A stretch of 64,000 bases of DNA from an uncultured Planctomycetales bacterium (GCA_964512635.1 CAZEJB010000006.1:1500-65499); one strand, 5' to 3'. Shown: positions 9,378 through 49,814, numbered from the stretch's first letter. Numbers and translations: made by a program. Notes: generated from the sequence alone by a model not told the origin.

Positions 9378-9383
9378 TATACT
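9378..9383 (+). promoter_or_regulatory. TATACT -10-like box 7 nt upstream of the GTG start of paralog 2 (leaderless-type)
   Basis: The same hexamer lies 6-8 nt upstream of the start of paralogs 2-6. No Shine-Dalgarno sequence. Confidence 0.4.
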
Positions 9384-9390
9384 TTGCACA

Positions 9391-10692: not shown

Positions 10693-10693
10693 C

Positions 10694-10699
10694 TATACT
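10694..10699 (+). promoter_or_regulatory. TATACT box 6 nt upstream of the GTG start of paralog 3
   Basis: gacTATACTctgccgGTG. Confidence 0.4.
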
Positions 10700-10705
10700 C
10701 TGCCG

Positions 10706-12046: not shown

Positions 12047-12095
12047 GAGAGAGCGCATTCGGCTAAATTGGACCAGCAACTGTCCGAGTTATGCG

Positions 12096-12101
12096 TATAC
12101 T
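12096..12101 (+). promoter_or_regulatory. TATACT box 6 nt upstream of the GTG start of paralog 4
   Basis: gTATACTtctgccGTG. Confidence 0.4.
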
Positions 12102-12107
12102 TCTGCC

Positions 12108-13457
12108 GTGCAAAGATTGGATACCGCGACACTGAACCACGAGGCGCTGGCCGAGCTGCTGCACGGCCGCAGCCTGAAGCAGTGGTGGGTGGCGCGCCAG
12201 ATCGGGGTAGTGCCGCTGACAGTCAACCGCTGGCTGACCGGCAAGGTGCGGCGGATCAGCCTCGACAACCTGGAGCGGCTGGCCCGGCTGCTTGAGTGTT
12301 CTGCCGATACGCTGGTGCTGAAAGACAACGTGCAGGTGCGGGCAACCCAGGTGGAACAATCGCAGGCGGCGCGGATGCTGATTACGCCGGAAAGCCAGGA
12401 TATGTTCGTCAAGGCCGGCCAGCTTGAGACCTATGAGCATTTGATCAAGGCGGTAATGCACCCCAACCTCGCTCTCAACACCCTGCTTGAAGTTTATTCA
12501 GTCCTGACGCTGGTGGCAGGGCTGAAGGGCGACTTCAACCGCAGCTATGAGTATGCCAAGCTGAAGCTGGACTATGCGCTGCGCTGCGGCGACGCCGACA
12601 AGGAACTGGAAGCGCGGATCAACCATGTCAGTGCGCAGGCTGCGCTGGGCAAACTGGCTGCTTCGCATCGCGGCCTGCTGGATTTGTACAGCACCGCCGA
12701 AAGCCAGGGAGCGGTGCGCAGCATGGTCCTGACCCGGATCAATCTAATCGCCACCTACCGGCTGCTTGGCCGGATGACGGCGGCTATGCGCTGCGGACTT
12801 GAAACCCTGCGCCTGCTGGAGGCCCTGCAGGCAGAGAATGACGACCAGCACCACTGGCGACAGCTGGCGGCTTCCTATGCGCTCTTTTCCATCACAACCT
12901 CGGCCCTCGAGTGCGGTGAGGACGAACTGGTACGGCTGCTGTTGAGAATTCAGCAACCCTTCATCGAGCAATTCCACACTCCAATTGAGCGGCTGACCAT
13001 GGAAGCTACCGAGATGCTGCTTGATCTGCGCTCCGGGGGCAAGGTAGATCAGCAGCGGCTGGATGAGCTTGGCGCCGCCTTTCTGGAGGCCAATCAGTAC
13101 GGAATTGGCGGTTCTATCCTGCCCTCTCTTTGCCTGCGTGGGAGCGGACGTTTCGAGGATGCGGCTGCTTATCTGGAGGCCGTTGAGTCAAGCCCGGGAT
13201 GCGAAAAGTACGAGGCTTGCTTTGTTGCAGACGAATGGCAGCGGCTGCACCAGGCCATGGGCAACAGCCGCAAGGCCAGCAGGGCCGCAGCACGTTCCCG
13301 GGCGCTGAAGCTGGGCTTCGGCATGATCCGGGAAGCACAGGCGGACTGTGTAGAGTTTGGCCGGCAGTACACGCTGCCACCGGCCCTGGTGCGCCGGATT
13401 GCGCTGCTTGCTCCGCAGGTTATCGGGCAGGTTCTGGCGAAGCGCAGCACGGGATAA
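12108..13457 (+). CDS. XRE-HTH + TPR-like regulator (paralog 4)
   Basis: GTG start in frame with track ORF 12015. (M)QRLDTATLNHEALAELLHGRSLKQWWVARQIGVVPLTVNRWLTGKVRRISLDNLERLARLLEC…. Confidence 0.75.
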   Translation: MQRLDTATLNHEALAELLHGRSLKQWWVARQIGVVPLTVNRWLTGKVRRISLDNLERLARLLECSADTLVLKDNVQVRATQVEQSQAARMLITPESQDMFVKAGQLETYEHLIKAVMHPNLALNTLLEVYSVLTLVAGLKGDFNRSYEYAKLKLDYALRCGDADKELEARINHVSAQAALGKLAASHRGLLDLYSTAESQGAVRSMVLTRINLIATYRLLGRMTAAMRCGLETLRLLEALQAENDDQHHWRQLAASYALFSITTSALECGEDELVRLLLRIQQPFIEQFHTPIERLTMEATEMLLDLRSGGKVDQQRLDELGAAFLEANQYGIGGSILPSLCLRGSGRFEDAAAYLEAVESSPGCEKYEACFVADEWQRLHQAMGNSRKASRAAARSRALKLGFGMIREAQADCVEFGRQYTLPPALVRRIALLAPQVIGQVLAKRSTG

Positions 13458-13479
13458 GCGGCAGCACTCAGAACATTAC

Positions 13480-13485
13480 TATACT
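13480..13485 (+). promoter_or_regulatory. TATACT box 7 nt upstream of the TTG start of paralog 5
   Basis: acTATACTgattgccTTGcataag. Confidence 0.35.
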
Positions 13486-13492
13486 GATTGCC

Positions 13493-14791
13493 TTGCATAA
13501 GCAGGACACCGCCACTTTGAACCAGGAGGCACTTGCCGCGCGCATGCATAAGCTTGGCGCGAAGCAGGCCTGGCTGGCGCTGGCCATAAATGTCACCCCT
13601 CTGACCGTCAACCGCTGGATGACCGGCAAGGTCAAGCGCATCAGCCGTGACAACCTGGCCCGACTGGCTGAGGCGCTTAAATGCGATCCCGACAGTCTGG
13701 TCTTCGCCGACGAGACTGATGTGGTGGCGACCGAGCTGGAGCAGTCGGCTGCGGCCCGGCTGCTGGTCAGGCGCGAGAATCAGGAGCTGTTCATCAAGGC
13801 CGGGCAGATGGAGAGCTACGAACGTCTGATCAAGGCAGTGGTGCATCCGCGTCTGCCACTTTCAGACCTGGCGGACATCTACAGCTCGCTGACCTTTGCC
13901 GCCGCCAAGCAGGGCAAGCTGGAGGATATCCGGCGCTACGCCCGGATGAAGCTGGAGTATGCCCAGCGCATCGGCGACGGCGCCCGCGAGCTGGGGGCAC
14001 GCACGCACCTGGTTCTGGTTGACGCTGAGGAAGGCAAGCTGCTAAAGGCACGCCGCGGTCTGCTGGACCTGCTTTCTTCTGCGGAGAGTCAGGGGCTGAC
14101 CAAGGGAACGAGCATTCCAATGATCAACCTGATCCAGGTCTACCGCCTGCTGGGAGATCCGCGCCGCGCCTGCGCCTATACCATCAGGGTCTTCCGCTAT
14201 CTGAGCGGGCGGCCGGATACATCCTGGCCCCGCGCCTATGCCTGCGGGAACATGGCGCTGGTGGCGGCTGATACCGGCAGGTTCCGTCTGGCCCGCAAGC
14301 TCAAGCAGGCCGAAGCGCAGCTCAGCCGCGTGCAGTCGCCGCACGAGCGCTGTGAAGGTTCGCTGTTCAAGCTGGCAATGCTCAGCCTCGGCGGTGGCGA
14401 CGAAGGGCGGGAGAACCTTGAGGCCCTGGTCAAAACCTATCTCGGCTCCACGAAGTTTGGCGATGGCCATGCAGCCTGGCCCGCGCTGATCTGGCGACGC
14501 CGGGGCGGTTTGAAACAGGCGATGGACTACCTTGATGCCTTGGACACGCACAGCGCCTGCGGGGTTTACGAGCGGCCCTTCATCCTGCGCGAGCGAGCGC
14601 GCCTGCTGGCTGCGCTGGAGGACCACCATGCTGCAGACGAAGTGCTGCAGGAGGCGAATGAGCTGTTTCGCAATCTGGCCATGCGCCGCCGCTGCGAAGA
14701 CGATCCGGCCGCCGAGTTTGGAAGCCAGCTCAAGCTGAGCCCGCGCAGCGCGAGTGAGGTTGTAAACCTGCTGCCGGCAGTTTTGACCTGA
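13493..14791 (+). CDS. XRE-HTH + TPR-like regulator (paralog 5)
   Basis: TTG start in frame with track ORF 13199. (L)HKQDTATLNQEALAARMHKLGAKQAWLALAINVTPLTVNRWMTGKVKRISRDNLARLAEALKC… The upstream part of the track ORF overlaps paralog 4. Confidence 0.7.
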   Translation: MHKQDTATLNQEALAARMHKLGAKQAWLALAINVTPLTVNRWMTGKVKRISRDNLARLAEALKCDPDSLVFADETDVVATELEQSAAARLLVRRENQELFIKAGQMESYERLIKAVVHPRLPLSDLADIYSSLTFAAAKQGKLEDIRRYARMKLEYAQRIGDGARELGARTHLVLVDAEEGKLLKARRGLLDLLSSAESQGLTKGTSIPMINLIQVYRLLGDPRRACAYTIRVFRYLSGRPDTSWPRAYACGNMALVAADTGRFRLARKLKQAEAQLSRVQSPHERCEGSLFKLAMLSLGGGDEGRENLEALVKTYLGSTKFGDGHAAWPALIWRRRGGLKQAMDYLDALDTHSACGVYERPFILRERARLLAALEDHHAADEVLQEANELFRNLAMRRRCEDDPAAEFGSQLKLSPRSASEVVNLLPAVLT

Positions 14792-14803
14792 TACAGAGCT
14801 GTC

Positions 14804-14809
14804 TATACT
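14804..14809 (+). promoter_or_regulatory. TATACT box 8 nt upstream of the GTG start of paralog 6
   Basis: gtcTATACTgttgtcccGTG. Confidence 0.4.
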
Positions 14810-14817
14810 GTTGTCCC

Positions 14818-16146
14818 GTGCTGAAACAGAACACTGTCGCCCTAAACCAGCTAGCCCTGGCCGAGCGACTGCGCGAACAGGACCTGAAACAGTACTGGGT
14901 GGCGCGTCAGATTGGCGTGACACCTCTGACAGTCAACCGCTGGCTGACCGGTAAGGTGCGACGCATTTCCCTTGATAACCTGGAGCGACTGGCTGAACTG
15001 TTGAAGTGCACGCAGGAGAGCCTGATCCTGCACAATGAGTTGCAATCCCAGGCCACGCAGGCCGAACAGTCACAGGCCGCGCGCCTGCTGGTCAGCCGCG
15101 AAACGCAGGCCCTGTTTGTCGCCCAAAGCCAGTTTTCCAGTTATGAGAGCCTGCTGCGCGCAGTTATGCACCCCAACCTGCCGCTGCGGGATCTGCTGGC
15201 GACCTATAGCAGCCTGACCATGGCTGCCGCCGAACAGGGACGCTTCGAGCAGGCGCGCAGCTATGGCCAGGCGCGGCTGGAGCTGGCGGCGCGGGCAGGG
15301 GATTTATCCAATGAACTTGAAGCAAGGCTGAACTTGCTGACCATTGACGGCGCCGACGGTCAGATCCTGCGGGCGCGCAAGGGCATCGAAGACCTTGTGC
15401 AGGATGCCCGCTGGCTGCCTGATTTTCGCGGCTTTGGTATGGCCCTGATGAACCTGTACTACATCTATTACCTGCAGGGCGAGCTTGACCCGGCGGTCAG
15501 GATGCTGCGCCGGGCCCTGGCCCAGTGCGCGCTGCAATACTGGCTGCAGATCCGAGATTCTCTGTTCCTTCAGGGCTGCCTGATGGCGCTGGAGATCGGT
15601 GAGCTCGAACTCGCCGAGCGCTGCCGGCAACTGAGCCTGAATGTCCGCCAGCTGACCCTGTCGCGGGACCAGCGTCTGGTGCTGAACATGCTGGGGCATC
15701 TGATCGCTTCGCTGCGCGGGCATCCGCCGGATATGCCGGCCATCGATCAGCTGCTGGCTGACTTCGCGGCCGCCGAGACCCACGACGAGCTCAGCCTGCA
15801 CATTCCGGCAGCAGTGCTGCGGCAGGCCGGCAGGCTCGAGGAGGCCGGCGACTACCTGCGGCAGGTCAGCCGCAGGAAACAGGGCCGGGCCTATGACGCC
15901 CCCTTTCTGCAGGCGGAAAGCGCGCGGCTGGCCCAGGCGCGCGGGCATGCTGTGCGCGCCGCCAAGATGGCCGCCAAGTCGCGCCAGTCCTGCCTTGAAC
16001 TGTGCCTGGATGCCCGGGCAAAGGCCGACCCGCTCAAGGATTTGGGAGGCATCAAGATCAGCGCCGCGGGGCGCCGCCTGCTGTTCGAACTGGTCGCGCA
16101 GGAAGAGGATCTGCTGGCCCGCACTGGTCCCGGGCCTGCCGGCTGA
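14818..16146 (+). CDS. XRE-HTH + TPR-like regulator (paralog 6)
   Basis: 442 aa. MLKQNTVALNQLALAERLREQDLKQYWVARQIGVTPLTVNRWLTGKVRRISLDNLERLAELLKC…. Confidence 0.8.
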   Translation: MLKQNTVALNQLALAERLREQDLKQYWVARQIGVTPLTVNRWLTGKVRRISLDNLERLAELLKCTQESLILHNELQSQATQAEQSQAARLLVSRETQALFVAQSQFSSYESLLRAVMHPNLPLRDLLATYSSLTMAAAEQGRFEQARSYGQARLELAARAGDLSNELEARLNLLTIDGADGQILRARKGIEDLVQDARWLPDFRGFGMALMNLYYIYYLQGELDPAVRMLRRALAQCALQYWLQIRDSLFLQGCLMALEIGELELAERCRQLSLNVRQLTLSRDQRLVLNMLGHLIASLRGHPPDMPAIDQLLADFAAAETHDELSLHIPAAVLRQAGRLEEAGDYLRQVSRRKQGRAYDAPFLQAESARLAQARGHAVRAAKMAAKSRQSCLELCLDARAKADPLKDLGGIKISAAGRRLLFELVAQEEDLLARTGPGPAG

Positions 16147-21737: not shown

Positions 21738-22220
21738 ATGAGAACAGAAATAAGCCCTGAGGAAGTAGAGCTGCGCGTTGAGCACTTTAAGGACGCGGTA
21801 CGCAAGGCCGGCGTCAAGCTGACGCATCAGCGACTGGAGATCTTTCGCGAGGTCGCTGCCAGCGTGGATCACCCCAGCGCCGATTCGCTTTATGAAGCGC
21901 TCAGGCCACGGTTGCCGGTGCTGTCGCTTGACACTGTCTACCGCACCCTGTGGCTGCTGCACGACCTCGGCCTGGTGAGCACGCTGGGACCGCGGCGCGA
22001 AAGCGTGCGCTTTGACGCAAATCCCCTGCCCCACCACCACTACATCTGCACGCGCTGCGGACTGGCCCGCGACTTTGAGAGCAGCGAGCTGAACATGCTT
22101 CATATCCCCGACCTGGTAACGGAATTCGGCAGCATCAACGCCACCCATGTTGAGGTCCACGGCGTTTGCAAGGGCTGTATGAGCGCCCCGGAAACGAGTT
22201 CCAAGGCCAGGCACAAGTAA
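21738..22220 (+). CDS. Fur-family transcriptional regulator (FurA/PerR-like), immediately upstream of katG
   Basis: …LTHQRLEIFREVAASVDHPSADSLYEAL…HHHYICTRCG…VHGVCKGC. Fur-family winged helix plus metal-binding His/Cys. Confidence 0.85.
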   Translation: MRTEISPEEVELRVEHFKDAVRKAGVKLTHQRLEIFREVAASVDHPSADSLYEALRPRLPVLSLDTVYRTLWLLHDLGLVSTLGPRRESVRFDANPLPHHHYICTRCGLARDFESSELNMLHIPDLVTEFGSINATHVEVHGVCKGCMSAPETSSKARHK

Positions 22221-22232
22221 ATCAGGAAGTAG

Positions 22233-24440
<2,208 letters not shown>

Positions 24441-30312: not shown

Positions 30313-30768
30313 TCAAGCATCCCACCTGAACCACTCAACCCACTGGTAACTCTTGGCCCCGGGCCAGCGTTTCTGTGGGTTGTTAACGATGTACTGCAGC
30401 TTTTCGATGAACTCGTTCTCGTCGCGCATGATACGGTCAAAGTACTCGCGCTGCCAGACAGCGCCAATTCGTCCGTGCTCTCGTTGCAAACGATTGGCGG
30501 TGAAGGACTTCCAGCTGTACATGATCTGCTGGATCGTATACCCGCTTCGAGGCTCCAGCAGCGCATGGCAGTGGTCATTCATCACCACATAGCCGTAAAG
30601 CTTGTAGCGCTGGCCGTCAAAATGCTTGATTGCTGATGCAACGAGCGTTCGCTCTGCAGGCTGGAGCTCACTCTGCTTCTCATGCATACGCCAGGTCAAG
30701 AAATATACCGACCCCGACAAACGCCAATGGGGCAGGTTGCGACGATAGATGAAGAAGTCCTCAGGCAT
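30313..30768 (-). mobile_element. REP-associated tyrosine transposase (RAYT, IS200-like Y1 HUH transposase)
   Basis: 151 aa. …YFLTWRMHEKQ…YVVMNDHCHALLEP…WQREYFDRIMRDENEFIEKLQYIVNNP. HUH (HCH) motif and the family-typical C-terminus. Flanked by the REP/BIME-like repeats. Confidence 0.8.
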
Positions 30769-34683: not shown

Positions 34684-35013
34684 CTACTTTGCCGGCAGGC
34701 TGGCGGCGAAGCCGAGGGCGCGCTGCACCCAGGCCTGCAGCTCGGCATCAGTCTCCACACCCGCAGCGTCGACAAAAAGCATGCTCTTGAGCACCTTGCC
34801 GGTGAAGTCCATCGGGCGGGTGTGCGGCTCTTCGAGCGCAGCGGCGGTAAGCTCATTGCCCAGGCGCAGCATCAGTTCATCGCCGGCCACTCCGCAGGCC
34901 ATATTGCCGTTAACCATGAAGCAGACGCCGCCAAACATGCGCCTTTCGCTGACGCCGGGCTGGTCGGCGAGCAGAACGCGGATGCGCTCAACGAGCAGTT
35001 CATCGCAGGCCAT
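34684..35013 (-). CDS. TfoX N-terminal domain protein
   Basis: 109 aa. …RRMFGGVCFMVNGNMACGVAGDELMLRLG… The start ATG overlaps the stop of the upstream small gene (TGATG). Confidence 0.65.
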   Translation of the reverse strand: MACDELLVERIRVLLADQPGVSERRMFGGVCFMVNGNMACGVAGDELMLRLGNELTAAALEEPHTRPMDFTGKVLKSMLFVDAAGVETDAELQAWVQRALGFAASLPAK

Positions 35014-35189
35014 CAGACGTCCCCGCCTTCACCTTCGCTGTGGGGAGAGTCGCCAGGGCCGAAAACATCGTCGTCATGAGTGAACTCGTCACCGTCGAGG
35101 CCGCCCACGCAGCAGCAGGAGGCCAGCAGCGCGATGACTAACACCGCGCAAAGCAGCAGGATATGGCAAAGCCGTGTGAAAGATCGCAT
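35013..35189 (-). CDS. tiny acidic lipopeptide, paralog A (58 aa), not in the ORF track
   Basis: MRSFTRLCHILLLCAVLVIALLASCCCVGGLDGDEFTHDDDVFGPGDSPHSEGEGGDV. Lipobox LASC. Confidence 0.5.
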   Translation of the reverse strand: MRSFTRLCHILLLCAVLVIALLASCCCVGGLDGDEFTHDDDVFGPGDSPHSEGEGGDV

Positions 35190-35305
35190 GCCAGGATACT
35201 AAGCCACCGCCTGCACAAAGACAAGCCCGGTGGGCTGGCGCTCGGCCCTGTTCCGATTGTGGGACTTAACTTAACCCGAGGGAATCTGGATGCATCAAGG
35301 ACAGA

Positions 35306-35449
35306 CTAAGCGTCGCCGCCGGTGCCTTCGTTGTGCGGGATCGGGTTGAAGTCGTCGTCATCGCCTGAGCTGTCGCCGCAGCAGCCGCCCAGGCAGAAGA
35401 TGAGGCCGATCAGGGCCAGAGCCGTGGTGAGATAACGCCATGTGTTCAT
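35306..35449 (-). CDS. tiny acidic lipopeptide, paralog B (47 aa)
   Basis: GGAGG plus ATG. MNTWRYLTTALALIGLIFCLGGCCGDSSGDDDDFNPIPHNEGTGGDA. Confidence 0.55.
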   Translation of the reverse strand: MNTWRYLTTALALIGLIFCLGGCCGDSSGDDDDFNPIPHNEGTGGDA

Positions 35450-35551
35450 TTCAGTCCTCCCGGAAGTTATATCGCGCCAGGAGCAAGCCTAAACAGGACT
35501 GAACCATTAATTAACTATCTTGTGCGGCAGCTGCCAGAGGCCCAACCACGA

Positions 35552-35695
35552 CTACACGTCGCCGGCATTGCCTTCGTTATGCGGGTCCGGGTTGATGTTG
35601 TCATCATCGAAGATGCCCGAGAGACAGCAGCTGCCAAGCAGGCTGAGGCCAAGCAGCAGGAGCATCAGCGTTAAGTGGGTACGTAGAGTGTGCAT
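35552..35695 (-). CDS. tiny acidic lipopeptide, paralog C (47 aa)
   Basis: GGAGG plus ATG. MHTLRTHLTLMLLLLGLSLLGSCCLSGIFDDDNINPDPHNEGNAGDV. Confidence 0.55.
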   Translation of the reverse strand: MHTLRTHLTLMLLLLGLSLLGSCCLSGIFDDDNINPDPHNEGNAGDV

Positions 35696-35750
35696 TAAAT
35701 ACCTCCGCTCACTCAGACCCGCCTGAGAGCAGAAAGGTTGGCGAAAGCCT

Positions 35751-35784
35751 CAAAGAAAGCAAAAGGGGCAGCCGTGGCTGCCCC
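35751..35784 (-). terminator. rho-independent terminator after lipopeptide D
   Basis: Perfect 8-bp stem GGGGCAGC/GCTGCCCC (35765-35772/35777-35784), followed on the minus strand by TTTTGCTTTCTTT. Confidence 0.55.
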
Positions 35785-35811
35785 AGTGTCGTTCTGACTG
35801 ATGTCGAGAGA

Positions 35812-35961
35812 CTAGGCGTCGCCGCCGGTACCCTCGTTGTGCGGAAGCGGATTGAAGTCGTCGTCGTCATCATCCGTTCCGCCAAGGCAGCAGCAGCTGG
35901 CCAGAGAAACCAGCAACATCGCCGCTACCAGACCTTTCACAAGCCACGCGAGCTTACTCAT
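35812..35961 (-). CDS. tiny acidic lipopeptide, paralog D (49 aa)
   Basis: GGAGGG plus ATG. MSKLAWLVKGLVAAMLLVSLASCCCLGGTDDDDDDFNPLPHNEGTGGDA. Differs from paralog B mostly at synonymous sites in the C-terminal motif. Confidence 0.55.
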   Translation of the reverse strand: MSKLAWLVKGLVAAMLLVSLASCCCLGGTDDDDDDFNPLPHNEGTGGDA

Positions 35962-36000
35962 ACTCAACCCTCCAAAAAACCTGGTCCATCGAGAGAAACG

Positions 36001-36036
36001 AACTAATGAACCAGAGGGCAGTTTCCCACCCTCTGG
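36001..36036 (-). terminator. hairpin plus T-rich tract after lipopeptide E
   Basis: 8-bp stem CCAGAGGG/CCCTCTGG (36011-36018/36029-36036), followed on the minus strand by TTCATTAGTT. Confidence 0.4.
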
Positions 36037-36068
36037 TTCATTACATTCTTGTGTTAACCAGCGCAGGG

Positions 36069-36227
36069 TTAGGCGTCGCCGCCCACGCCCTCATTGTGCT
36101 GACCCGGACCGAAAATATCGGTGTCGCTCGGGTCATCATCAGTGCCGCCGGTGCAGCAGCAGCTCGCCAGCGCCAGCAAAAGAACTGACACGGCGATGCC
36201 CTTGAGGATGCTGTCCAAGACCTTCAT
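36069..36227 (-). CDS. tiny acidic lipopeptide, paralog E (52 aa)
   Basis: GGAGG plus ATG. MKVLDSILKGIAVSVLLLALASCCCTGGTDDDPSDTDIFGPGQHNEGVGGDA. Confidence 0.55.
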   Translation of the reverse strand: MKVLDSILKGIAVSVLLLALASCCCTGGTDDDPSDTDIFGPGQHNEGVGGDA

Positions 36228-36862
36228 ACGTCCTCCACGATGGAAAGCTGAGGGTGATTATAGAACAGGATATAGCGATTTGAGAAGTGCAAGACGTCCA
36301 AAATCGGCAGGCCTTCCCCCGTCCTGTTCCCACACCGGCAAGCCGGTATGGTTCGCGCATTATAGCGCAGCGCGTGGTCATTGGTGATGAACTTGGGATA
36401 AATCGACCTATGCTCCCCGCGCAGGGCTATTTTCGGCCTGCTGCGGCCCGGCTTGAGCCCCCGTCTCAGCGGCACAGAAATATCAGCCTGTGGCTGGCTT
36501 TTGTCAGCGCAGGCGGATTCGCGCGTTGGGAAAATCTCAATTCCTGAGGAAAGTCAGTTCTGGTCAGTCAAATGTGACGAATGAAACTATGGGCTGGATG
36601 CCATGCCGAATTGTCGCTGCCGGACAACAGGGGCTTGCCTGGACAACCACAGTTACTTCCGGTGTCCTATGAGGTCGTCTGGAAGCCACGGCAAGCCATT
36701 GAGCATCCTTGAAAGCTCAGGCCTGTTGACAATAGAGGGAACACACGGTCAAACCACTACCTGAAAGCTGCTGAGAGCCATGTAGCGGGCTTGAAGGCAT
36801 TTGTGGTTCAATGCGCCCCGCACAAGAGTCCGGCACGAGATTCCGGGGCCGGCTTCAGGCAT

Positions 36863-38179
36863 TTACCACTCAGTGGAAGCAGCCTTGTCCAGACGGTCGC
36901 GGGCCTCGTCAAACATCCCGGAACCCTTGGTGCCGACTTCCTCGCTGGCAGCGGCCTGAAGATAGATCTGGATGTTGTAGACATGGATCCGCTGGCCGTT
37001 GACCCAGTCGAACTCGTCGCCATAAACCGGGCGGTACTGGCAGCGCGGTAACAGCTGCTCAATCGCCTGGCTGATGATCGAGTCCGGGTTGACCTTGCCA
37101 TCCCGCAGGTCCTTGATGCTGGGCTGCTTAATCAGCGCCTGCAGGCGGCTGGTCAGATAGGCGTCGTAGTTGCCGTTGCGGTCGCGGACGCTGACGCTGA
37201 CCGGCAGCCAGGCGCCGGCGGCGGGCACCAGCGCCTCTGTTGGCGTGCCCTGTCCGCGCCCAATGCCAAGCGAGGTCAGATAGGCCCGGGTGCCGTCACG
37301 CAGACCGGCCTGCTCAGACTCGGTCAGCTCTTTGTAAGGCTGCATCTTGATGGCCAGATCGCTGGGCCAGGCTGGAACGGTGAAGCTGAACTCTTCGTCT
37401 TCCAGGGCCTGCTGGGCTTCAACCGGCGAGACGAAGCGGCTGTCAAGCACCTGGATTTCGCGGGCCGTTGTGCTGAGCGCACCGCTGAGCCCATACGCGA
37501 TCTGGTCGGCGTGACGAGCAGCGATCTGCGCGGGGCTGTTATCCGGCTGTTGCCCGACATAGGCCTCGCCCTGCGGGCGCAGGCGAGAGACCAGCATCCC
37601 CACCGGACTGACCCGGCGGGTGGTCTCGACCAGGGCGGACTGGGAGAACATCGGCTCCAGGCCACCACGGCCGTGGACGATCACCAGTTGACGCAGGCGC
37701 TCTTCCAGCTTGCTGCGGCTGGTGTCAAAGGCTGTAGCGTTAATACGCAGGTGTCCTGAGCCACCTTCCGGCGCCTGCAGGTCAGTCGCACCGACCGGGC
37801 TGAAACTGGCGCTGAGGATGGTTCCACGCGGCTCGTTCTTCAGCAGCTCGGAATAAAGCTCAGAAGCCTCGCGGCGGCTGAGGTCCTTTTCGAAGCCCAT
37901 CTGCAGGGCCAGAATTGAGCTGCGCATGGGCAGCCAGGGGGCAAGCAGCAGGGCCAGCACCAGGACTGCGGCAGCAGCGCCGCCGACGGCCTTGCCGCCC
38001 GGCTTGCTGCGCGGCAGCGGGCCCATGGTCTGGGCCTTGAACAGAATGCTCTTTACGGAGGGCGCGCCCGCGGCGAAGGCCGCGAAGTCAAGGTCCTTGC
38101 GCGCGTTGCCCAGCGGGTCAGGCCCGCTGTACAGATCCTCCTCGTGCACGTCTTTCAGATCTTTTCCCAGCAGCATCAT
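36863..38179 (-). CDS. membrane protein co-transcribed with the ECF sigma factor (putative anti-sigma factor)
   Basis: 438 aa. Its start overlaps the stop of the ECF sigma gene (ATGA). N-terminal cytoplasmic segment, one transmembrane helix (AVGGAAAAVLVLALLLAPWL), and a large periplasmic domain. Confidence 0.6.
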   Translation of the reverse strand: MMLLGKDLKDVHEEDLYSGPDPLGNARKDLDFAAFAAGAPSVKSILFKAQTMGPLPRSKPGGKAVGGAAAAVLVLALLLAPWLPMRSSILALQMGFEKDLSRREASELYSELLKNEPRGTILSASFSPVGATDLQAPEGGSGHLRINATAFDTSRSKLEERLRQLVIVHGRGGLEPMFSQSALVETTRRVSPVGMLVSRLRPQGEAYVGQQPDNSPAQIAARHADQIAYGLSGALSTTAREIQVLDSRFVSPVEAQQALEDEEFSFTVPAWPSDLAIKMQPYKELTESEQAGLRDGTRAYLTSLGIGRGQGTPTEALVPAAGAWLPVSVSVRDRNGNYDAYLTSRLQALIKQPSIKDLRDGKVNPDSIISQAIEQLLPRCQYRPVYGDEFDWVNGQRIHVYNIQIYLQAAASEEVGTKGSGMFDEARDRLDKAASTEW

Positions 38180-38736
38180 TGCTGCACCTCAAAATCCGGG
38201 CCAAGAATCTCAAGCAGCTTCTTGCGGGCCCGGTGAACTCGAACCTTCACCGCGCCAGCGGTGAGGCCCATGATTTGAGCAACTTCTTCAAGTGAATAGC
38301 CTTCCAGCGCCGTCAGAGCCAGGGGCAGGCGCAGCTGCTCCGGCAGGCTGTCGAGGGCGCGGAAAACCTGGCGGCTCTCCAGCTTGCGGCCGGGGTTGCC
38401 GTGCATCGGATAACGCTCGAGGCGCTCCCAGAGCACGCCGTCCCCTCCATAATCGGCCACATCAAGCTGACGCTTGCGTCCGCGGCAATGGTCGATATGC
38501 AGGTTGCGCATCAGGCGCATGAACCACCAGTGGAAGCGCGTGGGGTCTTTGAGCTTGTCGTAGGCCTTGATGGCACGGGCGACACTTTCGGCCAGCAGAT
38601 CCTCGGCGTCCTCGCGGCGGCCGCAAAGATAAAGCGCCAGACGCCAGGCCTGCTGGTGCACTTCTTCATAGTGCGCCACGAAGGCCTCGTTGCGGGCGGC
38701 CACCGAATCACTGCGTGTTAGCGCCAAGGCGATCAC
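38176..38736 (-). CDS. ECF-family RNA polymerase sigma factor (sigma-70 regions 2 and 4)
   Basis: …AFVAHYEEVHQQAWRLALYLCGRREDAEDLLAESVARAIKAYDKL… and …LPEQLRLPLALTALEGYSLEEVAQIMGLTAGAVKVRVHRARKKL. Confidence 0.85.
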   Translation of the reverse strand: MIALALTRSDSVAARNEAFVAHYEEVHQQAWRLALYLCGRREDAEDLLAESVARAIKAYDKLKDPTRFHWWFMRLMRNLHIDHCRGRKRQLDVADYGGDGVLWERLERYPMHGNPGRKLESRQVFRALDSLPEQLRLPLALTALEGYSLEEVAQIMGLTAGAVKVRVHRARKKLLEILGPDFEVQQ

Positions 38737-38812
38737 ATTCTACCCAGACGCCATGACCGCGGGACGGTTACATATATGTATGGCGAATACGCGAGAAATT
38801 TTGACTATTGCG

Positions 38813-39736
38813 CTAGTCTGGGTCGCAGCAGCGTGCAATGATCCGCTCAACTTCCGCCGGCATGGCCCCGCCCTGCTCTGTCAGGCTGCCATAGAGCTCC
38901 GACGCCCGTCGAGCGGCTTTGCAGGCGCGGGGGCGATCCCCCATGACTTCATAAGCCAGAGCCTCGTTAAAGGCCAGATCCGGATCTGCAGCCTGGCCGA
39001 GTTTAAGCCTGGTATTCTCGGCTTCGCGATAGGCTTCGAGCGCTTCTTCGAGACGACCGGCCTCCTTGAGCAGCACCCCGCGATTCATCGGCAGATCGGG
39101 GTCAGGCGGCAAACCGGCAGCAGCCCGCAGCTCGGCCGCGCGGGTCAACTTTTGCAGAGCTTCGTCGCGGCGTCCAAGTGCAATCAACACCGCGCCGCGA
39201 TTCTTGATGAGAGAAAAGCCAGGCTCATCGCCCTGCGAGATGGTCTGGGCCTCGGATTCGTCATAGAAGCGAATGGCGGTGTCATAGTTGCCCATCCGAA
39301 CATGGCAGTTACCGGCATTCATGGTCAGCCCCGGGTCGGGCAACAGCCCCTGGCTCAGCCGCTCCTCCTGGCCCTGGCGGTAACTCTCCAGCGCCTCACG
39401 GTGCAGCTCCAGGGAGGCCAGAATATTGCCGCGATTCTTGAATATCTCAGGGTCGGGCAGCAGGCCCTGTTCCCTGCGCATGGATTCAGCTTCAGTCAGC
39501 GCCAGCAGCGCTTCATCAAGCTCCCCAAGCTGGGCCAGCGCCAGGGCGCGCAGCCGCTGCAGCTCAGGATCCGCCGGCAGGCCATCTTTCAGAAGCTTTT
39601 CCTGCCGGGCGTCGATCTCCTCCAGAGAGGGAATGTCATCGCCAATGATGTTCATGCGCTGGCGAGTATAGCGTCTCAGGAGCGCAGAGGGCCGCAGACG
39701 CGCCCACTGCCGCGGTAACATGGCCCGAGCAGCCAC
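38813..39736 (-). CDS. tetratricopeptide-repeat protein
   Basis: Repeated …ALxxYRxAExxRxxxGLxPDPDLxxNRGxxL… TPR units. 307 aa. Confidence 0.75.
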   Translation of the reverse strand: MAARAMLPRQWARLRPSALLRRYTRQRMNIIGDDIPSLEEIDARQEKLLKDGLPADPELQRLRALALAQLGELDEALLALTEAESMRREQGLLPDPEIFKNRGNILASLELHREALESYRQGQEERLSQGLLPDPGLTMNAGNCHVRMGNYDTAIRFYDESEAQTISQGDEPGFSLIKNRGAVLIALGRRDEALQKLTRAAELRAAAGLPPDPDLPMNRGVLLKEAGRLEEALEAYREAENTRLKLGQAADPDLAFNEALAYEVMGDRPRACKAARRASELYGSLTEQGGAMPAEVERIIARCCDPD

Positions 39737-39777: not shown

Positions 39778-40638
39778 ATGAGTTTACTGACCCCCATTGC
39801 CAAAAGCCCGCTGCTCTGGATGGTCCTGGTCGCAGGCGCCGCCGTCTTTGTCTGGTCGGCAGCGGCTCGCACCAACCATGAAGCGGCTGAAGCCGCCGCC
39901 AAGGAGGATTCCGTGCTTTTTTCCTGCCCTGCTGCCCCAAAAGATGCACAGCTCGCAGCGACTCTGCCTGCTACGGCGCCGATCGATGCCGCGCAGCCGG
40001 AGCACTTTGAGACGGCAAGTTTCGCGCTTGGCTGATTCTGGGGCCCTGACTCCCAGTTTGGGGGTCTTGACGGAGTGATCCGTACCCGCGTTGGCTATAT
40101 GGGTGGTGCCAAGCAGCGACCGACCTATCACAGCCTTGGCGACCATACCGAGAGCATTGAGATTGACTTCGACCCCGGCAAGATCAGCTATGAAGAGCTG
40201 GTACGCCAGTTCTTTGCCGCGCACTTTGCCGGGAGGCCGCCGTACAGCCGGCAGTATCGCAGCGCGGTCTTCTATCACAGCGACGCACAGCGCGAAACCG
40301 TGCAGCAGGTGATGGCGGAGCTGGAGCGCAGCAGCGGCAGCCTGTATACAGCGGTGGAGCCAGCGGGGACATTCTGGCTGGCCGAAGACTATCACCAGAA
40401 GTACTACCTGAAGCACGACCGGGTGTTCAGTCGCGAGATCAAAAGGCTGTTTGGCAACGATGAAGAAGCCCTGATCAACAGCACGGCTGCAGCGCGCCTG
40501 AGCGGTCTGGTCGGCGGTTACGCACCGGCGTCGCTGCGCGCCGAGAACATCAGCGATCTTGGCCTGAGCCCGGAAGGCGAAAAGCACGCGCTGGACATGC
40601 TGAGCGGCTCAGTCCGGCCTCAGATTATGTGTAAGTAG
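39778..40638 (+). CDS. msrA: peptide methionine sulfoxide reductase MsrA with signal peptide; in-frame TGA (40033-40035) at the catalytic Cys position: selenocysteine candidate or pseudogene
   Basis: Track ORFs 39778..40035 and 40075..40638 share one frame split only by TGA. Translation reads …FETASFALG-TGA-FWGPDSQFGGLDGVIRTRVGYMGG…, which is the MsrA GCFWG active site with Cys replaced by the TGA codon. Small hairpin 3 nt after the TGA (CTGGGG-ccctgac-TCCCAG). Confidence 0.65.
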
Positions 40639-46192: not shown

Positions 46193-46362
46193 GCTTTGTT
46201 AGTCGGACGAAGCATCGTCCGCTGAACAGAGCTACCGGCTCTTTGCGCCGGGCTGTCTGGACCTGCAGCAAGCTTGGCACAATCTTGTTACTTTCTGCAA
46301 AGCCGCTCGGCTGCAAGGGCTAGACTGGCCCTGCGCCGAGTTTGCAAGGCGCAGGATGCTGG

Positions 46363-48018
46363 ATGTCCTCCTTTTCAAAACAGCCGGTCATCGTCTGGTT
46401 GCGCATTGGCGACCTCCGCCTTGCCGACAATCCCGCCCTGCATGCCCTGGCCGGCTGGTCGGCGAGCGGGCGCCCTTGCATCCCAGTTTATGTCCATGAA
46501 GAGCGGCAAGCCGCATCGGAGCATGCACCGGGAGCAGCCAGCCGCTGGTGGCTGCACGAGAACCTGCAGGCTCTCGATGCCCAGCTCCAGTCTCTTGGAG
46601 CAAGGCTGATCCTGCGCCGAACTGCGGGCCGCAGTTCAGATGAACTTCTGGCCCTGGCAGAAGAGTGCGGTGCCAGTGCGATCTTCTGGAATGGCGGGTC
46701 AGCTTCGATCCAGAGCAGCGATGAGCGCTGGTTGTGCAAGGCTCTGGAGATGCGCGGCATAGGCAGGAACTGCCATGCCGACAACCGGCTGTTCAGTCCA
46801 ACTGAGATCTTCACAGCCAGCGGCAAGCCCTTTCAGGTGTTCACGCCTTTCTATAAGGCCTGTCTGCGCCTGCTTGAGGAACGGGCAGCAGGTGGAATCG
46901 ATCTGCTGGACGCCTTGCCGGCTCCGCTGTCGCTGCCGCTGGCCGCTCCCTTAGATGACTCCGGCAGCCGACCCCGCACGCTGGCACTGAAAGATCTAAA
47001 CCTGCTGCCGAGCAGGGACTGGTACGGCGGCATGGCCGAGCACTGGCAGCCTGGCGAGCATGGAGCTGAACTGGCCGTACAGCGCTTTCTGGCCTCCCGC
47101 GGGCCGGCTTTGTATCCCGAGCAGCGCGACTTTCCGGCGACCGAAGGTACGTCCAAGCTGAGTCCGTATCTGCACTTCGGCAATCTGACCGCCCGGCAGC
47201 TTTGGCGCAGTTGCCGCCTGTGGCAGCAGGCCAGCGGGATTGCGCTCAGTGGTCTGGCGGCTTCCCCGGAAGGCTGGAAGGAGCGCGACGCACACCCTTC
47301 GGCAGCCAGCAAGGGTGTGGAGGCTTTCCTGCGTCAGCTGATCTGGCGGGAATTCGCTCATCATCTGCTGCATCACTTTCCGCATACAGTGGATCAGCCG
47401 CTGCGCGAGGACTTCGCGGCTTTCCCCTGGGCCCAGCCGGTTGGTGCTGGCGACAGCCCAGAACTGCTGGCCTGGAAGCGCGGCCAGACCGGCTACCCGA
47501 TCGTCGACGCTGCCATGCGCGAGTTGTGGCACACCGGCTGGATGCACAACCGCTGCCGCATGATTGTGGCGAGTTTCCTCTGCAAACATTTGCTGATCCC
47601 CTGGCAGGAAGGGGCGGCCTGGTTCTGGGATACCCTCGTCGATGCGGACCTCGCCAACAACACTTTGGGTTGGCAGTGGGTTGCCGGCTGCGGCGCCGAT
47701 GCCGCACCTTACTTCCGCATATTCAACCCGGTGCTGCAGGGTGAGAAGTTCGACCCGCGCGGGGACTATGTGCGGCGCTGGTGCCCGGAGCTGGCCGCGC
47801 TGCCGGACAAGCTGATTCATGCGCCCTGGACGGCCAGCCCGCTCGAGCTGGCCAGCGCCGGGGTAACGCTGGTGGACAGCCTGCGGGATGCCGAGAAGTT
47901 GCCGGCCCACAAGGTCGGCCCCCTGCCCCAGCCCGGTAGCTACCCGCGGCCAATCGTCGATCACAGCTTCGCCCGGGATCGCGCACTGGCTGCCTATTCC
48001 GCGATCAAGAGGAATTAA
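46363..48018 (+). CDS. deoxyribodipyrimidine photolyase / cryptochrome-family protein
   Basis: …VIVWLRIGDLRLADNPAL… N-terminus and …YFRIFNPVLQGEKFDPRGDYVRRWCPELA… FAD-binding C-terminus. Start taken at the internal MSSFSK. Confidence 0.85.
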   Translation: MSSFSKQPVIVWLRIGDLRLADNPALHALAGWSASGRPCIPVYVHEERQAASEHAPGAASRWWLHENLQALDAQLQSLGARLILRRTAGRSSDELLALAEECGASAIFWNGGSASIQSSDERWLCKALEMRGIGRNCHADNRLFSPTEIFTASGKPFQVFTPFYKACLRLLEERAAGGIDLLDALPAPLSLPLAAPLDDSGSRPRTLALKDLNLLPSRDWYGGMAEHWQPGEHGAELAVQRFLASRGPALYPEQRDFPATEGTSKLSPYLHFGNLTARQLWRSCRLWQQASGIALSGLAASPEGWKERDAHPSAASKGVEAFLRQLIWREFAHHLLHHFPHTVDQPLREDFAAFPWAQPVGAGDSPELLAWKRGQTGYPIVDAAMRELWHTGWMHNRCRMIVASFLCKHLLIPWQEGAAWFWDTLVDADLANNTLGWQWVAGCGADAAPYFRIFNPVLQGEKFDPRGDYVRRWCPELAALPDKLIHAPWTASPLELASAGVTLVDSLRDAEKLPAHKVGPLPQPGSYPRPIVDHSFARDRALAAYSAIKRN

Positions 48019-48827: not shown

Positions 48828-49814
48828 GTGAGTACTGCCGAAGTTCTCAGTAACTGGACTGCGCCGCGCTGGATCAAAGTCTGGCTCTGGCTGGCTACAG
48901 CCTTCAACCTGCTCTGGGGTTCCTGGGTGGCGCTGTTCCCAAGACACAGCTTTGAGCTGCTGGGCATCGTCCCGCCAAACTACCTTTCACTATGGCAATG
49001 CGTCGGCTTTATCATCGCCCTGTACGGAATCTGTTACGCAATGGCCGCCATCGATACGGTGCGTTTCTGGCCTAATGTGGCAGTCGGCCTGCTGGGCAAG
49101 CTGATCGGTCCGGTCGGTTTCATGTTTACGGCCCTGCGCGGCGAGCTTCCATGGAGCTACGGCATCAACGTGATCTTCTGCGATCTGATCTGGTGGATAC
49201 CCTTTGCCCTGATCATCCGCTGGGCCTACCGCAGCGAGCTGGACCGCCGAGACGCAGCAGACATGCAGACAGCACCAAGCCTGGACGAGGCATTTGTGCT
49301 GGGCCATGACCAGACGGGCCGCAGTCTGCTGGAGTTGTCGCGTCAGGGGCCACAGCTTGTGATTTTCCTGCGCCATCTGGGCTGTATTTTCTGTGCCGAG
49401 CTGCTGGGCGACCTTCAGCGCGGGCGCAGCAGCTTCGAGGCCGGCGGGCTGGGGCTGGTCTTTGTGCACATGGGTGGTGACGAAGAAGCCCGGGAGCGGT
49501 TGGCACCATTTGGCCTTGATGATCTGCCGCGGATCAGCGATCCCGATCGGAAACTCTATCGCGCCTTTGGACTGCGCCGCGGCAGAATCGGCCAGCTGTT
49601 GGGGCCAGGCGTGATCTGGCGGGCCATCCTGGCTAGCCTTAAAGGCGCCGGCCTGAACCACCCCGGTCGCAACATGGACCAGCTGCCAGGCATTTTTATT
49701 GTTCGTGACGGCCAGATCGTGCGGCGCTTCGAGGCCAGCAGCGCTGCAATGTTTGCGCCCAGCAGTGAATTCCGTCCGGCGGCAGCGCCGGCGCCTCGCG
49801 ACAGTCAGGTCTGA
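48828..49814 (+). CDS. membrane protein with a C-terminal thioredoxin-fold (AhpC/TSA/peroxiredoxin-like) domain
   Basis: N-terminal about 4 transmembrane helices. C-terminal …LVIFLRHLGCIFCAELLGDLQ… with a CxxC. Confidence 0.65.
   Translation: MSTAEVLSNWTAPRWIKVWLWLATAFNLLWGSWVALFPRHSFELLGIVPPNYLSLWQCVGFIIALYGICYAMAAIDTVRFWPNVAVGLLGKLIGPVGFMFTALRGELPWSYGINVIFCDLIWWIPFALIIRWAYRSELDRRDAADMQTAPSLDEAFVLGHDQTGRSLLELSRQGPQLVIFLRHLGCIFCAELLGDLQRGRSSFEAGGLGLVFVHMGGDEEARERLAPFGLDDLPRISDPDRKLYRAFGLRRGRIGQLLGPGVIWRAILASLKGAGLNHPGRNMDQLPGIFIVRDGQIVRRFEASSAAMFAPSSEFRPAAAPAPRDSQV

What the first reader, a model, noticed from the sequence alone, without database searches (positions are those of the whole stretch)
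39778..40638. msrA reading frame with TGA replacing the catalytic Cys codon: selenocysteine-MsrA candidate
Two track ORFs (39778..40035 and 40075..40638) are in the same frame and separated only by TGA at 40033. Reading through gives …FALG-U-FWGPDSQFGGLDG…, which is the MsrA GCFWG active site with the nucleophilic Cys codon replaced by TGA. Selenocysteine-containing MsrA is known in a few bacteria and algae. The N-terminus carries a signal peptide, so this would be a periplasmic seleno-MsrA. A short hairpin (CTGGGG…TCCCAG) starts 3 nt after the TGA, but I cannot confirm a canonical bacterial SECIS. The alternative is a nonsense pseudogene or sequencing error
Basis: partly seen in the sequence, partly recalled or inferred. 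Interest (0 to 1): 0.65.

Follow-up and report, generated by a model that had tools for sequence, protein, structure and literature searches.

The report
Selenocysteine form of MsrA repair enzyme
This is almost certainly one intact gene for a protein-repair enzyme (methionine sulfoxide reductase A) whose in-frame TGA most likely encodes selenocysteine rather than "stop"; this enzyme type is already known and common, so the gene is a mis-annotated ordinary member, not a new kind.

Summary
ATG 39778 to TAG 40638 is one frame, broken only by TGA 40033-40035, which sits at the catalytic Cys position of the MsrA motif (G-U-FWG).

- **Conserved TGA.** It is kept in the syntenic ortholog of a related MAG (76% aa identity, dS about 1). 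Purifying selection acts on both sides of it (dN/dS 0.04-0.19).
- **Widespread in the subfamily.** 73 of the 80 nearest species-representative genomes have TGA at this codon; 7 have TGT or TGC.
- **Normal stop elsewhere.** TGA ends 18 of 49 predicted genes in the window, so the genetic code is not reassigned.
- **SECIS-type hairpin.** Hairpin 40048-40066 (8 bp, GUU loop, 20 nt after UGA, about -12 kcal/mol) meets all four published bacterial SECIS constraints. It shows covariation and extreme codon bias across 66 TGA forms.
- **Closest solved structure.** This is the natively selenocysteine-containing MsrA of Clostridium oremlandii, including its C-terminal helical domain.

Novelty is low: a new member of a known, experimentally verified selenoprotein family. 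Minor points of interest are a probable export signal or membrane anchor and a conserved C-terminal Cys.

The parts
39778..40638 (+). Complete selenoprotein msrA coding sequence: 286 codons plus TAG, with Sec at codon 86
   Evidence: Single frame with one internal TGA. PMSR E=6.9e-39. The ortholog in L002 3763-4626 has the same architecture. dN/dS is 0.04-0.19 on both sides of the TGA.
39811..39858 (+). Hydrophobic N-terminal segment (residues 12-27): probable signal peptide h-region or membrane anchor
   Evidence: Kyte-Doolittle 15-residue maximum is 2.41. A comparable segment is present in L002 and in most TGA-form homologs, many of them with lipobox-like L-x-G/A-C. No dedicated predictor was run, so this is an inference.
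40033..40035 (+). UGA codon read as selenocysteine, at the catalytic position of the G-U-F-W-G motif
   Evidence: It aligns with the Cys of GCFWG in 98 of 120 protein homologs. The same codon is TGA in L002, L004, L086, L087 and in 73 of 80 GTDB species loci.
40048..40066 (+). Bacterial SECIS-type hairpin GACUCCCA-GUU-UGGGGGUC (8 bp, 3-nt apical loop)
   Evidence: MFE structure: -11.0 kcal/mol alone and -12.2 in context. The loop starts 20 nt after the UGA, with G then U in loop positions 1-2. It meets the four constraints quoted in PMC13188914. Covariation across 66 TGA forms gives 38 double-change cells against 17.8 +/- 2.7 in shuffles, 0 of 500 reaching the observed value. Mean MFE is -11.06 against -9.69 +/- 0.21 for synonymous shuffles.
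40015..40422 (+). MsrA catalytic (PMSR) domain, residues 80-215
   Evidence: Pfam PF01625 covers aa 80-215. The conserved AEDYHQKYYL and RTRVGY motifs are present.
40423..40575 (+). C-terminal helical domain of the CoMsrA type, about residues 216-266
   Evidence: phmmer aligns query 78-266 with residues 8-195 of 4U66 and 4LWJ at E about 2e-46. The Pfam MsrA_helical PF20939 hit at aa 227-249 is weak: E=0.0026, below the cutoff. The domain is described for CoMsrA in PMC4333827.
40630..40632 (+). Cys285 (TGT) in the conserved C-terminal tail ...RPQIMCK: candidate resolving cysteine
   Evidence: The IMCK end is conserved in L002 and P0003. A subset of other TGA forms also has a Cys near the C-terminus. 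The functional role is an inference only.
40075..40638 (+). The 187-aa ORF called by public pipelines (P0001): an annotation artefact that lacks the active site
   Evidence: P0001, P0002 and P0003 are all called from the equivalent GTG or ATG, each preceded by an 85-86-aa ORF and a 39-nt gap.

Best explanation
[quoted passage not shown] UGA 40033-40035 is then decoded as selenocysteine instead of ending translation. This gives a 286-residue protein with the active site G-U-F-W-G.

The selenolate attacks the sulfoxide of Met-S-O, releasing Met and forming a selenenic acid. That intermediate is resolved either by the conserved C-terminal Cys285 or by an external thiol, and is then reduced.

The N-terminal hydrophobic segment probably targets or anchors the enzyme outside the cytoplasm.

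Shown here: the frame, the homology, conservation of the TGA, selection on both sides of it, and the conserved SECIS-type hairpin. Inferred: actual Sec insertion, the role of Cys285, and export.
For: - **One frame, one stop.** A single TGA sits on the catalytic Cys position.
- **Sec/Cys pair.** 98 of the 120 closest database proteins have Cys there.
- **Orthologs share the split.** P0002 (MAG GCA_020849855.1, 76% aa identity) and P0003 (JGI, 69%) are called as the same split ORFs. The L002 DNA shows the same in-frame TGA with conserved synteny.
- **Selection, window against L002.** dN/dS is 0.16 for the 25 codons before the TGA, 0.044 for the 13 codons between the TGA and the mis-called GTG start, and 0.19 downstream, at dS 0.8-1.15.
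- **Subfamily-wide TGA.** 73 of the 80 nearest species-representative genomes have TGA, 5 have TGT and 2 have TGC.
- **Standard code.** TGA ends 18 of 49 predicted genes in the window.
- **SECIS criteria.** Hairpin 40048-40066 meets the published bSECIS constraints on loop size, stem length, loop G, spacing and energy.
- **Hairpin conservation.** 63 of 66 TGA forms fold into a hairpin with a GUU-centred loop. Covariation exceeds all 500 shuffles. Mean MFE lies 6.5 sd below shuffles that keep each sequence's amino acids.
- **Codon bias in TGA forms.** Ser7 is TCC in 34 of 35, Gln8 CAG in 34 of 34, Arg8 CGG in 30 of 31, Gly10 GGG in 60 of 66 (the nearby Gly14 is GGG in only 5 of 66), and Ser11 AGY in 39 of 39.
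- **Closest solved structures.** These are the CoMsrA entries 4U66, 4LWJ and 4W8C at E about 2e-46, against 1e-26 for the next MsrA. CoMsrA is natively a selenoprotein (PMC4333827 and PMC4479559).
- **Recognised family.** GUFWG/H Sec-MsrA is listed as an experimentally verified prokaryotic selenoprotein family (PMC13188914).
Against: - No selA, selB, selD or tRNA-Sec lies in the 64-kb window. The rest of the genome could not be examined, so Sec-decoding capacity of this organism is not shown.
- No second selenoprotein gene was found in the window.
- The organism looks oxygen-exposed (KatG, photolyase). A review says such bacteria retain selenoproteins less often.
- RNAalifold's consensus picks the alternative UGA-proximal hairpin, not the one I favour.
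- The contrast with Cys-form DNA is weak: only 7 sequences, mean MFE -9.1 against -11.1.
- The Logan contig identical to the window probably comes from the same reads, so read-level support is not independent.
Confidence: 0.88

Rival explanations
1. Nonsense pseudogene or sequencing error: a former Cys-MsrA gene inactivated by a TGY-to-TGA change, or a base-calling error.
For: A single-base change from TGC or TGT gives TGA. Public pipelines call two fragments. No Sec machinery is seen in the window.
Against: The same TGA is present in an independently assembled MAG that has diverged to dS about 1. dN/dS is 0.04-0.19 on both sides and there are no frameshifts. A third relative (P0003) is split the same way. 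73 of the 80 nearest species have TGA. A hairpin conserved at the codon level follows the TGA.
Confidence: 0.03
2. Two separate products: translation stops at the TGA and only the downstream 187-aa ORF (GTG 40075) is made, as a non-catalytic MsrA-like protein.
For: This is what the gene callers output.
Against: The 187-aa product lacks the whole GxFWG active site. The 13 codons between the TGA and the GTG are the most constrained part of the gene (dN/dS 0.044), and the 25 codons before the TGA are constrained too (0.16). The GTG has no spacing from any Shine-Dalgarno-like sequence (sequence).
Confidence: 0.03
3. Sec-independent read-through: UGA decoded as Trp or Cys by near-cognate suppression, in an organism that has lost the Sec machinery. 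The gene would be a relic on its way to a sense codon.
For: The machinery is untested. One distant homolog (L003) carries a genuine TGG at this codon while keeping the hairpin, so TGA-to-TGG transitions do occur in this family.
Against: The TGA and the SECIS hairpin are retained in all three members of this lineage under purifying selection. Trp at the nucleophile position would be catalytically dead. Most 'W' forms in databases are TGA mistranslated with genetic code 4.
Confidence: 0.05
4. Genome-wide reassignment of TGA (genetic code 4 or 25), so the codon would encode Trp or Gly.
For: Some source pipelines translated homologs with W at this position.
Against: 18 of 49 predicted genes in the window end in TGA, including Pfam-supported ones. 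G+C is 62%.
Confidence: 0.01

Closest known systems
Selenoprotein MsrA of Clostridium (Alkaliphilus) oremlandii OhILAs (CoMsrA; PDB 4LWJ, 4U66, 4W8C)
   Same: Best solved-structure match: E about 2e-46 over query residues 78-266 against chain residues 8-195. It has the same G-U/C-FWGPD active site and the same two-domain layout, with the unusual C-terminal helical domain. The native catalytic residue is Sec encoded by UGA.
   Different: In CoMsrA the catalytic residue is at position 16. I take the enzyme to be cytoplasmic, which is inference from its short N-terminus. It is described as a 1-Cys type that glutaredoxin reduces efficiently. The window protein has an 85-residue N-terminal extension with a hydrophobic segment and a conserved C-terminal ...IMCK tail with a possible resolving Cys.
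Cys-containing MsrA of the same subfamily (for example Dehalococcoidia, Haloarcula, Bipolaricaulota; P0005-P0007, L027, L074)
   Same: 45-53% identity, the same domains, often the same N-terminal hydrophobic extension and IPPID motif.
   Different: TGT or TGC replaces TGA. The Gly10 codon is not GGG in 6 of 7. None of the 7 makes the 3-nt GUU-loop hairpin, although L074 has a comparable stem with a GGUUCG loop.
Classical E. coli and bovine MsrA (PDB 1FF3, 1FVA)
   Same: The same PMSR fold and GCFWG nucleophile chemistry. Their recycling cysteines lie in a flexible C-terminal tail (established knowledge), which is analogous to the Cys285 proposed here.
   Different: Much more distant: E about 1e-19 to 1e-20. 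They have no helical domain and use Cys, not Sec.
E. coli fdhF bacterial SECIS and the bSECIS consensus model (bSECISearch)
   Same: A stem-loop inside the coding region just 3' of the UGA, with G then U at the start of a small apical loop and 16-37 nt spacing. The window hairpin has 20 nt spacing, a GUU loop and an 8-bp stem.
   Different: There is no sequence similarity to fdhF. No bulged U is evident. No Rfam family covers it: no hit even at E<=10.

Membership tests
Bacterial selenoprotein MsrA (GUFWG type) | MsrA (PMSR) catalytic domain | tested here: met
   PF01625 at E=6.9e-39 and TIGR00401 at 109.4 bits against a cutoff of 108.1.
Bacterial selenoprotein MsrA (GUFWG type) | In-frame UGA aligned with the catalytic Cys of GCFWG, with Cys-containing homologs (Sec/Cys pair) | tested here: met
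   The context is FALG-TGA-FWGPD. 98 of 120 homologs have Cys at that column.
Bacterial selenoprotein MsrA (GUFWG type) | TGA-containing orthologs in other organisms | tested here: met
   L002, L004, L086 and L087, plus 73 of 80 GTDB species loci.
Bacterial selenoprotein MsrA (GUFWG type) | Bacterial SECIS downstream of the UGA: 3-9 nt loop, 4-16 bp stem, G in loop position 1-2, 16-37 nt spacing, MFE <= -7.5 kcal/mol | tested here: met
   40048-40066 has a 3-nt GUU loop, an 8-bp stem, 20 nt spacing and -11 to -12.2 kcal/mol. The criteria come from PMC13188914. Covariation and synonymous-shuffle tests are positive. bSECISearch itself was not run.
Bacterial selenoprotein MsrA (GUFWG type) | Sec-decoding machinery (selA, selB, selC, selD) in the same genome | not testable with these tools
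   None in the 64-kb window. The rest of the genome could not be fetched, and the genome was not among the 80 loci returned by the GTDB scan.
Bacterial selenoprotein MsrA (GUFWG type) | Selenium actually incorporated at residue 86 | not testable with these tools
   This needs 75Se labelling or mass spectrometry.
CoMsrA-type two-domain MsrA | C-terminal helical domain (PF20939) | tested here: met
   The alignment to 4U66 and 4LWJ runs to chain residue 195 of 209, covering most of the helical domain (145-209). The Pfam PF20939 hit alone is sub-threshold: 17.9 bits against 23.7.
Exported or extracytoplasmic MsrA | Cleavable signal peptide or N-terminal membrane anchor | tested here: inconclusive
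   A hydrophobic stretch at residues 12-27 is flanked by Lys9 and SAAAR, and similar segments or lipobox-like motifs occur in most homologs. No signal-peptide predictor or topology tool was available.
Pseudogene | Relaxed selection or frame disruption around the stop; stop not shared by orthologs | tested here: not met
   dN/dS is 0.04-0.19 on both sides, the frame is kept and the stop is shared.

The most novel reading that the evidence does not exclude
This would be an exported or membrane-anchored selenoenzyme working outside the cytoplasm. The Sec86 selenenic acid would be resolved by the conserved C-terminal Cys285, a '2-Cys-like' selenenylsulfide mechanism unlike the 1-Cys CoMsrA. Expression would be under the divergently encoded ECF sigma/anti-sigma pair, in an uncultured and apparently oxygen-exposed lineage. 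More broadly, most members of this Sec-MsrA subfamily carry signal or lipoprotein-like N-termini. Extracytoplasmic selenoproteins could therefore be much more common in bacteria than the characterised cytoplasmic example suggests.
Probability: 0.35. Interest if true: 0.45.

Novelty: new member of a known kind. Interest (0 to 1): 0.25.

Why it matters
The main value is for annotation. Public pipelines split this gene into an 85-aa and a 187-aa ORF, or translate the TGA as Trp using genetic code 4. As a result a functional antioxidant repair enzyme is recorded as a truncated, active-site-less protein.

The gene also indicates that this unnamed bacterial lineage probably uses selenocysteine.

Beyond that, the survey shows that TGA, not Cys, is the dominant state in this MsrA subfamily, and that most members look exported. 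That could motivate work on selenoproteins in the cell envelope. None of this changes current understanding of Sec decoding or of MsrA chemistry.

Tried and rejected
[quoted passage not shown] RNAalifold does pick an extended version of it, but with zero double-sided covariation.
- **'W' at the catalytic position in 18 of 120 database homologs as a real Trp subfamily: mostly rejected.** L004, L086 and L087 are TGA in the DNA. Only L003 is a true TGG.
- **A second selenoprotein gene in the window.** I scanned for TGA-joined coding-like ORF pairs and found only antisense-frame artefacts. The filter also missed msrA itself, because its N-terminus is Ala-rich, so the scan is insensitive.
- **Rfam.** There was no hit at gathering threshold apart from two tRNAs, and none at E<=10 around the TGA. 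I believe Rfam has no bacterial SECIS family.
- **Identifying the organism.** Urocanase homologs show only '[bacterium]' relatives, with Chloroflexota names at about 72% identity. A literature search for SRR14271333, GCA_020849855 and JADZFO found nothing. The GTDB scan did not return the window's own genome.
- **Kim et al. 2009 (PMC2671064).** The paper is not held in the library.
- **Promoter and terminator scan.** Nothing above chance around the gene.
- **Structure prediction.** Not run. The outputs give no inter-residue distances, so they could not test the Cys285-Sec86 idea, and the sequence match to solved structures was already decisive.

Full report
**Observation.** An ATG at 39778 opens a frame that runs to TAG 40636-40638. 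The only interruption is TGA at 40033-40035. The two mechanically listed ORFs (39778..40035 and 40075..40638) are in the same frame. The read-through product reads ...ETASFALG-[TGA]-FWGPDSQFGGLDGVIRTRVGY.... With Cys in place of the stop it matches Pfam PMSR (PF01625, E=6.9e-39, residues 80-215) and NCBIfam TIGR00401 msrA (109.4 bits, cutoff 108.1). In an alignment with 33 homologs the stop falls exactly on the nucleophilic Cys of the GCFWG motif.

**The gene is not broken.** The three closest database proteins are all called as 187-188-aa fragments. Each is preceded by an 85-86-aa ORF and a 39-nt gap.
- P0001 is this locus itself.
- P0002 is 76% identical, from MAG GCA_020849855.1.
- P0003 is 69% identical, from a JGI metagenome.

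The DNA of the P0002 locus (L002) shows the same in-frame TGA in ...ETASFALG*FWGPDSQFGSLDG.... It also shares the neighbours: an ECF sigma factor, a roughly 435-aa protein and a TPR protein upstream on the other strand, and a class-III aminotransferase downstream.

Between the window and L002, synonymous divergence is high (dS 0.8-1.15), yet dN/dS stays low throughout:

| Segment | dN/dS |
|---|---|
| 25 codons before the TGA | 0.16 |
| 13 codons between the TGA and the mis-called GTG start | 0.044 |
| Remaining downstream codons | 0.19 |

One Ser codon just upstream even changes AGT to TCC. Protein-level selection on both sides of a stop retained over that distance is incompatible with a nonsense pseudogene, a sequencing error, or initiation at 40075. 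TGA is an ordinary stop in this organism: it ends 18 of 49 predicted genes in the window, against 23 TAG and 8 TAA. The genetic code is therefore not reassigned.

**Distribution of the TGA.** I scanned one genome per GTDB species with an alignment of the subfamily. This returned 80 loci at 45-53% identity. At the catalytic codon 73 have TGA, 5 have TGT and 2 have TGC. The TGA forms come from:
- Syntrophorhabdales and other Desulfobacterota
- Dehalococcoidia and Anaerolineales
- Planctomycetota
- Syntrophomonadaceae
- Nitrospirota
- Acidobacteriota
- Desulforamulus aeronauticus DSM 10349
- Wukongibacter sp. M2B1
- Candidatus Uabimicrobium

Among the 120 best protein hits, 98 have Cys at this column and 18 have 'W'. 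The other 4 (P0001-P0003 and P0083) are truncated calls that lack the motif. Of the four 'W' cases checked at DNA level, three are TGA that the source pipeline translated with genetic code 4 on short contigs. This is the classical Sec/Cys pair pattern, and in this subfamily Sec is the majority state.

**The SECIS.** The review PMC13188914 quotes four constraints for the bacterial SECIS consensus:
- an apical loop of 3-9 nt on an upper stem of 4-16 bp;
- a G in one of the first two loop positions, usually followed by G or U;
- 16-37 nt between the UGA and the apical loop;
- MFE of -7.5 kcal/mol or lower.

The minimum-free-energy fold downstream of the UGA contains GACUCCCA-GUU-UGGGGGUC at 40048-40066. 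It has 8 bp, a GUU loop beginning 20 nt after the UGA, and -11.0 kcal/mol alone or -12.2 in context. All four constraints are met.

Across 66 distinct TGA forms, aligned without gaps over 54 nt (A3), the evidence for the 16-23/27-34 helix is as follows.
- It has 74% of cells paired.
- It has 38 cells with changes on both sides, against 17.8 +/- 2.7 in shuffles (0 of 500 reach the observed value). It also beats all slid registers.
- The closing pair alternates between G-C (CGG..UUC, 31 sequences) and A-U (CAG..UUU, 17 sequences).
- The pair below it alternates between U-A (Ser UCC with Ser AGY) and G-C (Ala GCC with GCN).

Folded individually, 63 of 66 make a hairpin whose apical loop is centred on GUU. 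Mean MFE is -11.06 kcal/mol. Shuffles that swap codons only among sequences with the same amino acid at that column give -9.69 +/- 0.21.

Codon usage is almost frozen where the stem needs it:

| Position | Codon | Count |
|---|---|---|
| Ser7 | TCC | 34 of 35 |
| Gln8 | CAG | 34 of 34 |
| Arg8 | CGG | 30 of 31 |
| Gly10 | GGG | 60 of 66 |
| Ser11 | AGY | 39 of 39 |
| Gly14 (four codons further on, for comparison) | GGG | 5 of 66 |

RNAalifold's consensus instead chose the UGA-proximal hairpin, but none of its pairs shows compensatory change. I attribute that result to invariant coding sequence. The comparison with Cys-form DNA is underpowered: 7 sequences, mean -9.1 kcal/mol, two of them high-GC haloarchaea. 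Rfam has no matching family.

**What it is related to.** The best solved-structure matches are 4U66, 7C13, 4LWJ-4LWM and 4W8C (E 1.8e-46 to 4.5e-40). The next MsrA structure scores 1e-26 and E. coli or bovine MsrA about 1e-19 to 1e-20. PMC4333827 identifies 4LWJ and 4W8C as Clostridium oremlandii MsrA. [quoted passage not shown] The window protein aligns from residue 78 to 266 with CoMsrA residues 8-195, so it includes most of that domain. The dedicated Pfam model PF20939 gives only a sub-threshold hit. The 2026 review lists MsrA with a GUFWG/H motif among experimentally verified prokaryotic selenoproteins.

**Differences from the characterised enzyme.** The window protein carries 85 residues before the Sec. 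These include a Lys-flanked hydrophobic stretch (residues 12-27) followed by SAAAR, and then an Ala/Pro-rich linker ending in a conserved PID...ETASFALG motif. L002 has an equivalent segment. Most TGA-form homologs have 50-110-residue extensions with a hydrophobic segment, many with lipobox-like L-x-G/A-C. Export or membrane anchoring is therefore plausible and appears typical of the subfamily. I could not run a signal-peptide predictor, and the envelope type of the organism is unknown, so 'periplasmic' is not established.

The C-terminus ...RPQIMCK is conserved in the three close relatives, and a subset of other members has a Cys near the end. By analogy with the C-terminal recycling cysteines of E. 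coli and bovine MsrA (established knowledge), Cys285 may resolve the selenenic acid. This is inference only.

**What could not be shown.** The window contains no selA, selB or selD and no tRNA-Sec. Its only tRNAs are Glu and Lys near 60.5 kb. The GTDB scan did not return this genome, and the protein look-up returned only an 11.8-kb Logan contig identical to the window. The organism belongs to an unnamed lineage. Its urocanase is 96% identical to that of GCA_020849855.1, and other close relatives are labelled only '[bacterium]', with Chloroflexota names appearing at about 72%. The window also encodes KatG next to a Fur-family regulator, a photolyase and a multihaem-type cytochrome c, which suggests exposure to oxygen and light. 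Possession of the Sec machinery is thus inferred from the conserved TGA plus SECIS, not observed.

**Verdict.** The gene is a new, mis-annotated member of a known and widespread selenoprotein family. Confidence in the Sec-MsrA reading is about 0.88. Interest is low to moderate. It rests mainly on the annotation fix, on the indication that this uncultured lineage decodes Sec, and on the side observation that most members of this Sec-MsrA subfamily look exported.

Noticed in passing
L003 3160-3162 (JGI 3300029288, contig Ga0265297_10006850): One homolog has a genuine TGG (Trp) at the catalytic Sec/Cys codon and a second TGG two codons into the hairpin (DSWFG). It still keeps a hairpin, GACUCC-UGGUUCG-GGAGUC, and an intact 259-aa ORF. 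This may be a Sec-to-Trp inactive variant, a lineage that lost Sec decoding, or an artefact.
   Followed up: partly
Protein hits P0004, P0027 and P0052 (loci L086, L087, L004): Public pipelines (JGI, NCBI-derived and probably Logan) translate the Sec TGA of these MsrA genes as 'W', apparently by choosing genetic code 4 on short contigs. In L086 the protein then also runs through the true TGA stop. 18 of the 120 closest database entries carry this W; of the four checked at DNA level, three are TGA and one (L003) is a genuine TGG.
   Followed up: yes
L005-L084, N-termini upstream of the TGA: Most TGA-form MsrA genes of this subfamily encode 50-110-aa N-terminal extensions with a hydrophobic segment, many with lipobox-like motifs (LLVGC, LHGCD, VLGCQ and others). 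A conserved IPPID motif lies about 20 residues before the Sec. This suggests exported or lipoprotein selenoenzymes are the common architecture.
   Followed up: partly
window 36863-39736 (- strand): A TPR protein, an ECF sigma factor (38176-38736) and an overlapping 438-aa protein with no Pfam hit (a possible anti-sigma factor) are encoded divergently from msrA. The same arrangement is conserved in L002. It might place msrA under ECF control, but this was not tested.
   Followed up: no
window 7337-16146 (+ strand): Five paralogous proteins of about 440-480 aa, each with an N-terminal Cro/C1-type HTH domain (HTH_3, HTH_26), sit in a row. Their long C-terminal parts have no Pfam match.
   Followed up: no
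window 21738-24440 (+ strand): A Fur-family regulator (PerR-like position) lies directly upstream of the catalase-peroxidase KatG. With the photolyase (46342-48018), an AhpC/TSA_2 protein (48828-49814) and msrA, the window is rich in oxidative and light-stress genes.
   Followed up: no
window 35000-36500 and L001 3078-3999, L002 180-595, L085 195-831: Clusters of three or four tandem ORFs of about 47-52 aa with no Pfam hit lie next to the TfoX_N and serpin genes in the related contigs. They may be a small-peptide gene array. I did not inspect the window copy.
   Followed up: no
L087 249-1741: In one metagenomic relative an msrB (SelR) gene lies 17 nt upstream of the Sec-msrA, which suggests an msrB-msrA operon. 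No such partner is adjacent in the window.
   Followed up: no
window 30313-30768 (- strand): An IS200-like Y1 transposase ORF (PF01797, E=2e-9) lies between the methyltransferase/unknown pair and the urocanase-serpin block. The equivalent region of the related MAG (L085) differs in gene content.
   Followed up: no
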